Shown here piece by piece: positions 31,301 through 34,300 of a stretch of DNA of 64,000 nt (position 1 is the first letter of the stretch; the number at the start of each line of letters is the position of its first letter). The position numbers were made by a program. This DNA is from Ophelia neglecta (lineage: Eukaryota): NCBI GenBank assembly GCA_965285935.1, contig OZ260662.1, forward strand, positions 88,102,001-88,166,000, read 5' to 3'.

Positions 31301-34300
31301 GTATACTCACAAAAATATTGGTGAATAGCTGCCTTCCTCTTTGGTAAGTAAATGAGTTATTTTTTACATATTTTGTTTTTCTTTCTACTAGGGAGAGATA
31401 GGACCGGTAAAGGTGCCAGGTACCTGCTGTCCAACCTGCTTGGCCCAGAATGTCACTACCACAATTTTGCCCCCAACAACCAGTAAGTACGGATTTCTTT
31501 AAATCTTTGTTCATTGTGCGCAGCATGGTATAATGAGTAATCTATAGTTATCTATATGTATGTCAAGTGCCATTTGCTAGTATAAGTCATACCTGACCTA
31601 TAGCTTTCAGGCAAAGGCCAAATGGGTGTTGACATGACTGCAGTACATAAATCACAATACATTCTGGTATTTGACGACACGCAGTACGTGTCTGTTGAGC
31701 ACTTTTGGTGTTTTAGCAACTGAATATGACTGAATGCAAAAGAAAACAATGTCTCCTACAAATGTTTTTCTGTTGTCAACTCAGACTTCATCGCCTTCAT
31801 GCTATGTAACCGAAAGTAAGCGAGAGCGATGCGTATACTATGGCATAATCGAGAGACAATGTCGTGGTTCTGGTTGGAATCAAGTTAACATAATGGATCT
31901 AAATGTGTTAATAAAAGCCATTTTTTTTACATTCTTTATAAAAAATAATGAAGTATGAATTGAGGAAGAAAGTATGATTTCTTGTAGTAGTATAGTAGCC
32001 ATGATTGACTGTGGTTACTATGGAATAAATAAGGATAAATGTGAGGCCCTGGAAGGCTGGCAACCCACACATGTTCAGGGCCACCTCGGTGCTATCGCTC
32101 GATAAATGAGTCTTCTTTCTTCAGTGTTGATTATGCTAAATGGATGGGACACTGTAGTAGTATTGTATAGTGCATTGTCCAGTCCTTTGCGTTTCTTTGA
32201 AAATCATTTTTGTAATCACTACTATGGCTTTAAAACATGTGTATGGCCATAGTTAACAAGATGTTCAACAGGCTATCTGTGCGGATGACATAAATTCAAT
32301 TTTATGAATCAATAATGCTGTGCACATGCAAAAAATACCCCATAATTGAATATTTATGAACGCTCGATTTTGTCATTAAAACTGTACTCACTTATGAACC
32401 GAGTAGTATTGCTGCTACTGTCTTGAACACATTACAAGTATTACAACCATATAAATCCATCCCACCGCTAATTCAAAAACAATGCAGAATGAAGTATGGC
32501 GAATGTGAACACCATGTCAAATGGGAAAGTAGTGGCATTGCACCCATTCAACTTTAGAATTTAATGATATTCGGATATGTCCTGTCCTTATGTACATGGT
32601 GTATATATTGTAAACCATGAGTGTGTTTTTTTTTACTTTTACCATTTTCCTTTTTTTCTTTACAGTTCTTATATTTTACAGTGGAAAAACTTTAATTTAT
32701 ATGACAATTGGAGACCCTTTCTACCTTCTTGCTTTCAAATAAAACCAGCAATTGACAGAAAATAGTATCGTTACATTTTAGTCACTACAGAAGGCGCCAC
32801 AACTACTACCACTACAATGGGTACCACCAGCTTGCCCTGCTACAACAGCCAAAAGTGTGAGTGTGTGGAGAGCTGTAATGAACCGGACAACTGTGCTAAC
32901 ACCCCAAGGTAAGTTCCGACTTTGTTTTCATTTGTAGAATTTAAAACAACTTATTAACAAATATTTTGATTTGATTCCATCATAACTAGGAGTGTTTTGT
33001 ATTTGATCCACTCACAAATATTACACATATATTCTTCTTTACAATTTTAAGTACTCATTCAATTTCTTCACGCATATTTATTGTAAGTTTATACGTGGGT
33101 CACCAGTAGCTCCTAAGTTGTGTGTGTCTCTTTTATCGTGCTGTTTCACACATTTCTACACTGGGTATTTTCTTTTCTGTTATGCAGATGTTGTCAGTCC
33201 TACAATTGTCCTGACAACTATGAACGAACTTCGTCAGGATCATGTGTTCTTAGGGCTACTTGCACTACAACTCCTGTCGGTACAACAACTGTTTTCATAC
33301 GTAAGTATAGTCATTTATTCAAAAAAAAATGATGACCTTTGCACCATGTAATAATTCACATTTAATATCAGTAAACCAAATATTAAGAAGTCAAATGTAT
33401 TTTGTCATAAAATTGCTAATTGATACAGTAATAATTTTAATGACTTCTGCTGGTTAAACTTTTCACGATATGCTGCTTAACCATCTAGGCCAATAGCTAT
33501 TGATGGGCCAGTCAAACTTTCACTGGTTCACAGTTCAGACATGACTATCATTAATTTATGGTCAAATTAAATATGACATCATTAATATTAGTTGGTTGTT
33601 GTTAACAAAAATAAACCTGTCTGATATTTCAGCCAAGTGTACCCATCGCATGTTGTCTGCGACACCTTTGGTGGAGTCAATAACAGGCACCTCAATGACA
33701 GTGGACAATGGCGTAGAGTACAGTCCCAACCAGGTCATTGCCGGCAAGGCTGGATGGGTACCCAATGCCGCAGTGGATAAGGTATGATTCCAACTTGCTA
33801 AAGAGTATACCAATGAGTTGTCAAAAGAGAAAAGTACACCTTTTAATCTCATTAAGAAATTGTTATTGCTGTAATCAAAATTAATCTGAATGTCTATATA
33901 TTGTTATATACTGTGCGTAGGTCCGTTCTTTGGTCATTAAATTCACCAAGCCAATTGTTGTCACTGGGTTCACCATCCGTCAAGCTAGTGTGGTTACCTT
34001 CGAGTTTGCCTTTAGTAATGATGGTATAACTTGGGTTCATTATACAGAACCAGGCAGCTCGGAGAGAAAGGTAAGTAGGTTCTCAACATTTAGCTTAGCT
34101 TTTTCCATAAAAAGTAACTATGTATTCGCATCACTTACAATAACTTATCTTTTATATTTCATTTTAGTTCTTATATTTTTTCCTAACAGTCCTTCCAGGG
34201 TAAAGACTTTCCCCCAAGATCCACCAGGCGTCACACAGGGTATTTCCATCCTGACATATCCTACCAGTATGTAAAGCTGACAGTCACTGCAGTAAGCCCC

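What the first reader, a model, noticed from the sequence alone, without database searches (positions are those of the whole stretch)
31785..32252. Fossil trefoil-domain exons inside a mucin intron
Seen: intron 31483-32781 holds two tandem decayed units with trefoil spacing. They are C-x9-C-VYYGI-x4-C..W (31800-31880) and C-x8-C-GYYGI-x4-C-EALEG-WQP...G(fs)PPRCYR (31983-32098), with a possible third trace CNHYYGFKTCVWP* (32211-32252). The CC pair is lost, there are frameshifts, and the flanking exons splice in phase without them. Established: the trefoil consensus is C-x9/10-C-G-(Y/F)-x-G-I-x4-C-x4-CC-W/F...PWC(Y/F). Trefoil domains bind mucin glycans and are built into frog integumentary mucins. 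Inference: an ancestor of this gene carried built-in trefoil cross-linkers that were later lost.
Basis: partly seen in the sequence, partly recalled or inferred. Interest (0 to 1): 0.65.

Follow-up and report, generated by a model that had tools for sequence, protein, structure and literature searches.

The report
Decayed trefoil-domain repeats in mucin intron
An intron of a large mucin-like gene holds the worn-down remains of two or three trefoil (sugar-binding) domains that can no longer be made into protein, a modest clue that this kind of mucin once carried such modules.

Summary
At 31800-31877 and 31983-32066 (+ strand, one frame) lie two units C-x9/8-C-[VG]YYGI-x4-C-x4/5-GW. A weaker third sits at 32211-32249. 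Pfam names Trefoil as best family for both ORFs, below threshold (12.5 and 16.6 bits, cut-off 21). Unit 1 searched against 1.84 billion proteins gave one hit, a triple-trefoil protein. A profile of units 1+2 finds porcine spasmolytic polypeptide (TFF2) first in the PDB. Controls were clean: 0 of 150 antisense ORFs hit Trefoil, and the next-best of 2,960 window ORFs scored 7.3 bits against 23.7 and 15.4. The shared frame has 3 stops in 173 codons, against 17 and 15 in the other frames. The unit cores have exon-like GC. As trefoils the units are dead: no CC pair, no clear C-terminal half, two internal stops, and the best acceptor is out of phase with the host intron. A P2X3-receptor resemblance of unit 1 is judged to be chance. 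Best reading: a relic of tandem trefoil modules, probably former exon(s) of this VWD-type mucin-like gene. Orthologues and RNA could not be checked.

The parts
31392..31482 (+). Upstream host exon (end of a VWC-like module, ...GTCCPTC..., then TTILPPTT). It ends with 1 nt of a split codon (phase 1).
   Evidence: Acceptor ...ctactag|GG, donor CCA|gtaagt at 31483.
31483..32781 (+). Host intron, 1,299 nt, GC 0.353
   Evidence: GT at 31483-4, AG at 32780-1. No transcript evidence was available.
31734..32249 (+). Near-open reading frame that carries all three units: 172 codons with 2 internal stops (TGA 31956, TAA 32103), ending at TAG 32250
   Evidence: 3 stops in 173 codons against 17 and 15 in the other frames. 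Windows of 172 codons with <=2 stops are 576 of 72,970 (0.8%), all on the + strand.
31785..31880 (+). Unit 1 core: TSSPS-C-x9-C-VYYGI-x4-C-RGSG-W-NQ, preceded by the acceptor-like ...ttctgttgtcaactcag|. GC 0.448.
   Evidence: Pfam Trefoil E 0.14, 12.5 bits. P0001 12/29 identical. Own HMM 23.7 bits.
31881..31982 (+). Spacer 1: AT-rich (GC 0.225), 1 stop in 34 codons in the unit frame (6 and 4 in the other frames). It holds no second half of a trefoil.
31983..32066 (+). Unit 2 core: C-x8-C-GYYGI-x4-C-EALEG-W-QPT. GC 0.475 over 31983-32100.
   Evidence: Pfam Trefoil E 0.0072, 16.6 bits. PDB hit to porcine spasmolytic protein, E 0.11. Aligns to DCGYSGITPKQC-ADNGCCWEPT of P0001. Own HMM 15.4 bits.
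32081..32098 (+).
   Evidence: Read-through with X raises the HMM score by only about 2 bits. The ORF 32045-32167 has 0 Pfam families.
32211..32252 (+). Unit 3 trace C-NH-YYG-FKT-C-VWP followed by TAG. Same frame, 68 codons after unit 2.
   Evidence: No HMM support.
32782..32909 (+). Downstream host exon: (I)TTEGATTTTTTMGTTSLPCYNSQKCECVESCNEPDNCANTPR

Best explanation
The stretch 31734/31785-32252 is a dead remnant of coding sequence for two, probably three, tandem trefoil (P-type) domains. It lies in the sense orientation inside a phase-1 intron that splits a Thr/Pro-rich linker of a VWD-C8-TIL-type mucin-like gene. Most likely it was once a cassette exon (or a few exons) of this gene, placing lectin-like trefoil modules between mucin stretches. 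It has since dropped out of the mRNA. Today it cannot encode a trefoil. Both units lack the CC pair (C4, C5). No convincing C-terminal half (W...PWC[FY]) survives. Two nonsense codons interrupt the frame. Splicing the best acceptor (31785) to the upstream exon would run into a stop after 11 codons. Shown: the motifs, their non-random clustering, the trefoil similarity, the near-open frame, the exon-like GC of the cores and the lesions. Inferred: that the units belonged to this gene, that they are skipped now, and that the ancestral modules bound glycans.
For: (1) Pfam Trefoil is the best family for both unit ORFs. Among 121 + strand ORFs at E<=0.01, only unit 2 hits Trefoil. (2) 0 of 150 antisense control ORFs hit Trefoil at E<=0.2. 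17 of those 150 had some weak hit, the best at E 0.012, and no family recurred. (3) phmmer of the unit 1 ORF against 1,835,955,588 proteins gave exactly 1 protein at E<=0.001 (E 6.7e-6, 41.8 bits). That protein, P0001, has three Pfam Trefoil domains (E 1.2e-28). (4) Unit 2 played no part in picking P0001, yet it aligns to it through C2-GY.GI-C3-...-W.PT. It scores 15.4 bits (window-wide E 0.0024) against an HMM of P0001's domains. The next-best of 2,960 ORFs scores 7.3 bits. (5) A profile of units 1+2 finds porcine spasmolytic polypeptide (TFF2) as top PDB hit, E 0.013, matching both of its domains. (6) The frame has 3 stops in 173 codons against 17 and 15, and the spacers are also depleted of stops. 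(7) GC is 0.448 and 0.475 in the cores, against 0.33-0.37 in the rest of the intron. (8) In the aligned C1-to-W core, units 1 and 2 agree only at C, C, YYGI, C and GW; their one other shared residue is a Ser just upstream of C1. In the gapless C2-C3 block the conserved codons are 16/18 nt identical, with synonymous differences at C and G codons, while the other codons are 6/15. This is the pattern of paralogous domains that diverged under protein-level selection, not of a recent neutral duplication.
Against: Both Pfam scores are below the gathering cut-off (12.5 and 16.6 against 21 bits). E 0.14 alone is noise level, since 17 of 150 control ORFs reach E<=0.2 for some family. The 41.8 bits against P0001 sum three repeats of one roughly 14-bit match, so the E-value is flattered. 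The P0001 HMM is also circular for unit 1. The unit 1 ORF matches P2X3 receptor 116-158 at about 40% identity (E 0.013). Only 3 of 6 trefoil cysteines remain per unit. The identical loss of CC in both units is odd for independent decay. The acceptor at 31785 is phase 0 relative to the unit frame, while the host intron is phase 1. Spacer 1 is more AT-rich than the surrounding intron, which fits poorly with one former exon. No orthologue, paralogue or transcript supports former exon status.
Confidence: 0.6

Rival explanations
1. The relic is not a former exon of the mucin gene. It is the remnant of a separate small gene or retrocopy for a secreted multi-trefoil protein like P0001, lodged in the intron.
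For: The three units sit in one uninterrupted frame, 60 and 68 codons apart. P0001 has three trefoils about 60 residues apart in one chain. The near-ORF opens with ATG at 31734. The spacers are not Thr/Pro-rich as mucin linkers would be. The acceptor phase does not fit the host intron.
Against: It lies on the same strand as the host. STQTSSPS immediately precedes C1, and an acceptor-like site sits at 31784|31785. The N-terminal MQKKTMSPTNVFLLS has only a four-residue hydrophobic core, a poor signal peptide (by eye). No poly(A) tail, target-site duplication or other copy was seen in the window.
Confidence: 0.2
2. The units are still used, as alternative or 'poison' cassette exons or as a cysteine-poor trefoil variant, in some tissue, stage or allele.
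For: The first halves are far better kept than neutral decay of a whole domain would suggest. There is a strong acceptor-like site before unit 1, few stops and exon-like GC.
Against: Inclusion from 31785 gives a stop after 11 codons. There are in-frame stops at 31956 and 32103. Cysteine count is odd and there is no C-terminal half. No good in-phase donor or acceptor pair was found.
Confidence: 0.08
3. The resemblance is to something other than trefoil, such as a fragment of a P2X-receptor head domain (C-x9-C-x4-W-CP ... NFT.FIKN), or is chance.
For: The unit 1 ORF hits 10 of 10 listed PDB sequences that are P2X receptors (nine named P2X3), E 0.013-0.023, over residues 32-72. Unit 2 reads C-E-ALEG-W-QP-T, like the C-E-IQG-W-CP-T shown for P2X3 in that alignment. 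Both Pfam Trefoil scores are below threshold.
Against: The P2X hit vanishes when the ORF is cut into its Cys-rich half or its AT-rich tail. The Cys-rich half instead lists spasmolytic polypeptide at a non-significant E 6.7, and the tail gives nothing. There is no P2X family hit in Pfam or NCBIfam and no P2X in the PDB search with the profile of both units. Half of the match lies in AT-rich sequence that codes F/I/K/N. A tandem triplet is natural for a repeat module, not for a receptor fragment. Pure chance is excluded for the shared motif.
Confidence: 0.07

Closest known systems
[quoted passage not shown]
   Same: These are mucins whose cysteine-rich modules are TFF/trefoil domains set between O-glycosylated stretches. 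FIM-A.1 has four TFF domains and FIM-C.1 at least five, and lectin-type binding to other mucins is proposed (PMC7177656, abstract and passages).
   Different: The FIM modules are intact and expressed. According to the same paper, FIM-A.1 lacks the VWD domains of typical gel-forming mucins. Here the host has three VWD-C8-TIL units, and the trefoil units are dead and intronic. The organism is not a frog as far as can be told: the best named relatives of one VWD exon are only 44-47% identical.
TFF2 / pancreatic spasmolytic polypeptide (PDB 1pcp, 1psp, 2psp)
   Same: It is the best PDB match of unit 2 and of the unit profile, through C1...C2-G[YF].GI....C3. Its trefoil domains are also in tandem.
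   Different: TFF2 has all six cysteines per domain (recalled). The E-values are only 0.11 and 0.013. The units here lack C4, C5 and a clear C6.
P0001, an unnamed 253-aa protein with three Pfam Trefoil domains (source listed as Logan, no name)
   Same: It is the only significant hit of unit 1 in 1.84 billion proteins. It shares C-x9-C-GY.GI-x4-C-x3-G-(C)C-W-.PT and has three domains at about 60-residue spacing. Its third domain has a single C where CC is expected.
   Different: It is intact and has a signal-peptide-like N-terminus and Pro-rich linkers. Its organism is unknown and was not pursued. Identity is 41% over 29 residues.
Hemolectin/hemocytin-type and lophotrochozoan mucin-like proteins (Lang et al. 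2016, PMC4948705)
   Same: [quoted passage not shown] The paper calls the F5_F8 domain characteristic of Lophotrochozoa mucin-like proteins (passages).
   Different: The word 'trefoil' does not occur in that paper's main text (count 0). The F5_F8 assignment here rests on one weak hit (E 0.0026). The taxon of the window is not established.

Membership tests
Trefoil (P-type, TFF) domain, Pfam PF00088 | Score at or above the Pfam gathering cut-off (21 bits) | tested here: not met
   12.5 bits (unit 1) and 16.6 bits (unit 2), with partial profile coverage of 1-26 and 10-25 of 43.
Trefoil (P-type, TFF) domain, Pfam PF00088 | Six cysteines, C1-x9/10-C2-x9-C3-x4-C4C5-x9/10-C6 (pattern recalled; seen intact in P0001) | tested here: not met
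   C1, C2 and C3 are present with the right spacing in units 1 and 2. C4C5 are absent in both. C6 is absent in unit 1, and in unit 2 is present only in another frame.
Trefoil (P-type, TFF) domain, Pfam PF00088 | Core motif C2-G-[FY]-x-G-[IV] with a basic residue shortly before C2, and aromatic W/F after the CC position | tested here: met
   Unit 1 reads RERC-VYYGI...GW and unit 2 reads DC-GYYGI...GWQPT. They align to P0001 and to spasmolytic polypeptide at these positions.
Trefoil (P-type, TFF) domain, Pfam PF00088 | Significant similarity to a bona fide trefoil protein, above window background | tested here: met
   with the caveats on repeat summation and circularity for unit 1.
Pseudo-exon / relic coding sequence | Homology to a coding domain plus disabling lesions | tested here: met
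   Stops at 31956 and 32103, missing cysteines, missing C-terminal halves and an out-of-phase acceptor.
Pseudo-exon / relic coding sequence | Absent from mature mRNA, and intact counterpart present in a relative | not testable with these tools
   There are no transcript data. Eukaryotic genome collections were not on hand. Word-index searches with a flanking exon found nothing up to 2,000 aa.
P2X receptor (Pfam P2X_receptor) | Match to the family profile; GWCP and NFT..IKN motifs in a full ectodomain | tested here: not met
   No P2X family hit in Pfam or NCBIfam. The CP is absent. The single-sequence match is lost on halving the ORF and in the profile search.
Gel-forming (VWD-type) mucin - host gene | N-terminal VWD-C8-TIL x3 and long Pro/Thr/Ser-rich repeats | tested here: met
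   VWD, C8 and TIL hits lie at 4072-12110. Thr-rich ORFs and a 2,011-bp tandem array lie at 37363-64000.
Gel-forming (VWD-type) mucin - host gene | C-terminal VWC/cystine-knot end | not testable with these tools
   The 3' end of the gene lies beyond the window.

The most novel reading that the evidence does not exclude
The units are not random wreckage. They descend from a lineage-specific, CC-less trefoil variant (C1, C2, C3, C6 only, core 'C.YYGI') that was kept by selection for a long time inside a VWD-type mucin of a non-vertebrate animal. This would be a second, independent marriage of trefoil modules and mucins besides the frog FIMs. It was silenced only recently, or is still spliced in some tissue or allele.
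Probability: 0.1. Interest if true: 0.6.

Novelty: new member of a known kind. Interest (0 to 1): 0.35.

Why it matters
According to the one paper read on the point (PMC7177656), TFF modules built into mucins are treated as an unusual feature of two frog skin mucins. The broad mucin survey of Lang et al. 2016 does not mention trefoil at all (0 occurrences in its main text). If this relic really is a former exon, trefoil-mucin fusions arose at least once more, in a VWD-type mucin, and could be lost again. That would bear on how mucus networks gain and shed glycan-binding cross-links. As it stands this is a single decayed locus with no functional consequence shown, so the weight is modest.

Tried and rejected
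**P2X-receptor fragment.** Raised and rejected.

**Frameshift read-through to 'PPRCYR'.** It gains only about 2 bits and is not relied on.

**DNA-level repeat between the units or elsewhere in the window.** blastn of the intron against the window gave only the self match; the best other hit was 23 nt at E 0.24. A three-way DNA alignment was uninformative.

**Word-index homologue searches.** Unit 2 against longer proteins found no candidate. The flanking exon 30011-30322 against longer proteins gave 4 candidates, none scoring. That mode stops at 2,000 residues, so a full-length orthologue of this very large gene could not be reached.

**VWD3 exon search.** It returned 19 proteins among 33 candidates. 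The best named ones are vertebrate mucin-2/-19-like at 44-47% identity. Unnamed hits reached 80% and were not followed. The taxon stays open.

**Other attempts.**
- NCBIfam gave nothing.
- TRF with period <=500 found no array in 30-64 kb.
- Literature searches turned up no paper on trefoil modules in VWD-type or invertebrate mucins among the listed titles and abstracts. This is a weak negative.

**Left out or unavailable.** Supplementary files of papers were not consulted. The supplementary figures of Lang et al. 2016 show domain architectures and might bear on whether any trefoil was seen.

Full report
**Setting.** The window (64,000 nt, no N) is eukaryotic. I do not take it for human: the best named relatives of one VWD exon are fish and mammal mucin-2/-19-like proteins at only 44-47% identity. 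The + strand carries a very large mucin-like gene.
- EGF-like exons lie at about 1.0-3.9 kb.
- Three VWD-C8-TIL sets lie at 4.07-12.1 kb.
- Thr/Pro-rich stretches follow, interleaved with LDLa, VWC, TIL and one weak F5_F8_type_C hit (ORFs).
- From 37,363 to the window end runs a tandem array of a 2,011-bp unit, at least 13.2 copies at 96-99.5% identity.

Lang et al. [quoted passage not shown] The taxon of this window remains open.

**The intron.** The upstream exon (31392-31482) ends ...GTCCPTCLAQNVTTTILPPTT plus one base. GT is at 31483 and AG at 32780-32781. The downstream exon starts with two bases and then TTEGATTTTTT.... This rests on sequence only.

**The observation.** Every motif is at the stated place.
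- Unit 1: C31800-x9-C31830-VYYGI-x4-C31860-RGSG-W31875.
- Unit 2: C31983-x8-C32010-GYYGI-x4-C32040-EALEG-W32058-QPT.
- Trace 3: C32211-NH-YYG-FKT-C-VWP, then TAG at 32250.
- All three are in one reading frame, with the YYG codons 60 and 68 codons apart.
- The peptide motif C.YYGI.{4}C occurs twice in bases 1-37,000, against none in 300 second-order Markov simulations.
- The DNA motif TAYTAYGGNWT has 3 matches in the whole window on both strands, all three here (shuffles average 1.18 matches, so the clustering and shared frame are the signal, not the count).

**Is it trefoil?** Pfam gives Trefoil as best family for both ORFs. Unit 1 scores E 0.14 and 12.5 bits over profile positions 1-26 of 43. 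Unit 2 scores E 0.0072 and 16.6 bits over positions 10-25. Both are below the 21-bit cut-off, and taken singly they are near noise. Among 150 antisense control ORFs, 17 had some family at E<=0.2 (best 0.012). None hit Trefoil and no family recurred.

The weight comes from two neighbouring ORFs choosing the same one of 24,736 families. The per-family p-values are about 6e-6 and 3e-7 (my arithmetic). Even multiplied by the 2,960 ORFs of the window, these stay at about 0.02 and 0.001.

Further searches point the same way.
- phmmer of the unit 1 ORF against 1.84 billion representative proteins returned exactly one protein at E<=0.001: P0001 (E 6.7e-6, 41.8 bits in 3 stretches).
- P0001 has three Pfam Trefoil domains (E 1.2e-28).
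- Unit 1 is 12/29 identical to its third domain.
- Unit 2 aligns as DCGYYGINKDKCEALEG--WQPT against DCGYSGITPKQC-ADNGCCWEPT.
- An HMM of P0001's three domains, run without filters over all 2,960 six-frame ORFs of at least 12 aa, gave 23.7 bits for unit 1, 15.4 bits for unit 2 and 7.3 bits for the next best.
- A profile of units 1+2 (A2) finds porcine spasmolytic polypeptide (TFF2) as top PDB hit, E 0.013, on both of its domains. Unit 2 alone gave the same protein at E 0.11.

Two caveats apply. The 41.8 bits sum three copies of one roughly 14-bit match. The P0001 HMM is also circular for unit 1, though not for unit 2.

**A rival that had to be dealt with.** The unit 1 ORF also matches P2X receptors (nine of the ten listed sequences are named P2X3; E 0.013, 18.7 bits). 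The matched stretch RCV.Y.....C...GW(CP)...FT.FIKN is about 40% identical over 43 positions, and unit 2's CEALEGWQPT recalls the CEIQGWCPT of that alignment. I judge this to be chance, for five reasons.
- Halving the ORF abolishes the match. The Cys-rich half lists spasmolytic polypeptide (E 6.7, not significant) and no P2X; the tail gives nothing.
- Neither Pfam nor NCBIfam reports a P2X family.
- The two-unit profile finds no P2X at E<=10.
- Half of the match lies in 22.5%-GC sequence that translates to F/I/K/N.
- A tandem triplet suits a repeat module, not a receptor fragment.

**Relic of coding sequence.** The shared frame has 3 stops in 173 codons, against 17 and 15 in the other two frames.
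- Even the spacers are depleted of stops: 1 in 34 and 1 in 36 codons, against 6 and 4, and 5 and 2.
- Windows of 172 codons with <=2 stops are 576 of 72,970 (0.8%) over bases 1-37,000 in six frames. All are on the gene strand, and this stretch is one of them.
- GC is 0.448 and 0.475 in the unit cores, like exons (0.47-0.54). It is 0.225 in spacer 1 and 0.33-0.37 in the rest of the intron.

Within the aligned C1-to-W core, units 1 and 2 share only C, C, YYGI, C and GW, plus one Ser just upstream of C1. In the gapless C2-C3 block the conserved codons are 16/18 nt identical, with synonymous differences (TGC/TGT, GGC/GGA). The others are 6/15. The units therefore diverged under selection on the protein and are not a recent neutral duplication.

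**Why it is dead.**
- C4C5 is missing in both units, with the flanking G and W kept.
- Nothing after the W resembles ...PWC[FY] in frame.
- TGA at 31956 and TAA at 32103 interrupt the frame.
- The only strong acceptor-like site (ttctgttgtcaactcag|A at 31785) is phase 0 for the unit frame, whereas the host intron is phase 1. Inclusion would read N-FIAFMLCNRK-stop.
It is unparsimonious because unit 3 shares unit 2's frame.

**What stays open.**
- Whether the stretch was a cassette exon of this gene or a separate tri-trefoil gene. For a cassette exon: same strand, the STQTSSPS lead-in, the acceptor, and the linker intron. For a separate gene: one frame, an ATG at 31734, P0001-like spacing and non-mucin spacers.
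- Why both units lack exactly the CC pair. Candidates are slippage in a TGY-TGY-TGG run (my conjecture), loss before the duplication, or a CC-less variant.
- Whether the stretch is really skipped.
- No orthologue, allele, paralogue or transcript could be reached. The genome collection on hand holds bacteria and archaea only. The word-index search stops at 2,000 residues.

**Comparison with what is known.** TFF modules inside mucins are described for Xenopus FIM-A.1 (four) and FIM-C.1 (at least five), with proposed lectin-type binding to other mucins (PMC7177656, abstract and passages). Those modules are intact, and FIM-A.1 lacks VWD domains. Here the host is VWD-type and the modules are relics. 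Three literature searches (listings only) showed no report of trefoil modules in VWD-type or invertebrate mucins, which is a weak negative.

**Verdict.** This is a new example of a known kind of thing, a decayed domain-encoding pseudo-exon. Interest is moderate to low unless relatives with intact exons are found.

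Noticed in passing
window 37363-64000: There is a tandem array of a 2,011-bp unit, at least 13.2 copies at 96-99.5% identity. Each copy holds long + strand ORFs (e.g. 39162-40910, 582 aa), with Thr/Pro-rich stretches alternating with a roughly 150-aa cysteine-poor module ending ...IHACLKV/...VHACIKV. These ORFs have no Pfam family at E<=0.01. TRF (period <=500) misses the array.
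   Followed up: partly
window 15075-21909 and 34629-36956: Several exon-like ORFs encode modules that end K/H-A-C-[YFL] (e.g. ...LKIKACYTP...YLKACYEPG...IYVHACFEV) and have no Pfam hit. They look like divergent relatives of the module in the big tandem array. They may be discoidin-like, given the one weak F5_F8_type_C hit at 33921-34271 (E 0.0026).
   Followed up: no
window 31827-31949 (unit 1 ORF residues 32-72): This stretch is about 40% identical to P2X3 receptor residues 116-158 (E 0.013). I judge it a chance look-alike. It arises because the trefoil and the P2X head share C-x9-C-x4-(C/W) spacing, and because the tail is AT-rich.
   Followed up: yes
window 986-3874: Four EGF-like exons lie directly upstream of the first VWD exon on the same strand. 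Whether they belong to the same gene as the VWD-C8-TIL units was not settled.
   Followed up: no
P0001 residues 199-243: The third trefoil domain of the only database relative has a single Cys where the CC pair is expected (...CRDNGCWKPT...). Natural trefoil-like domains with an altered CC site therefore exist.
   Followed up: no
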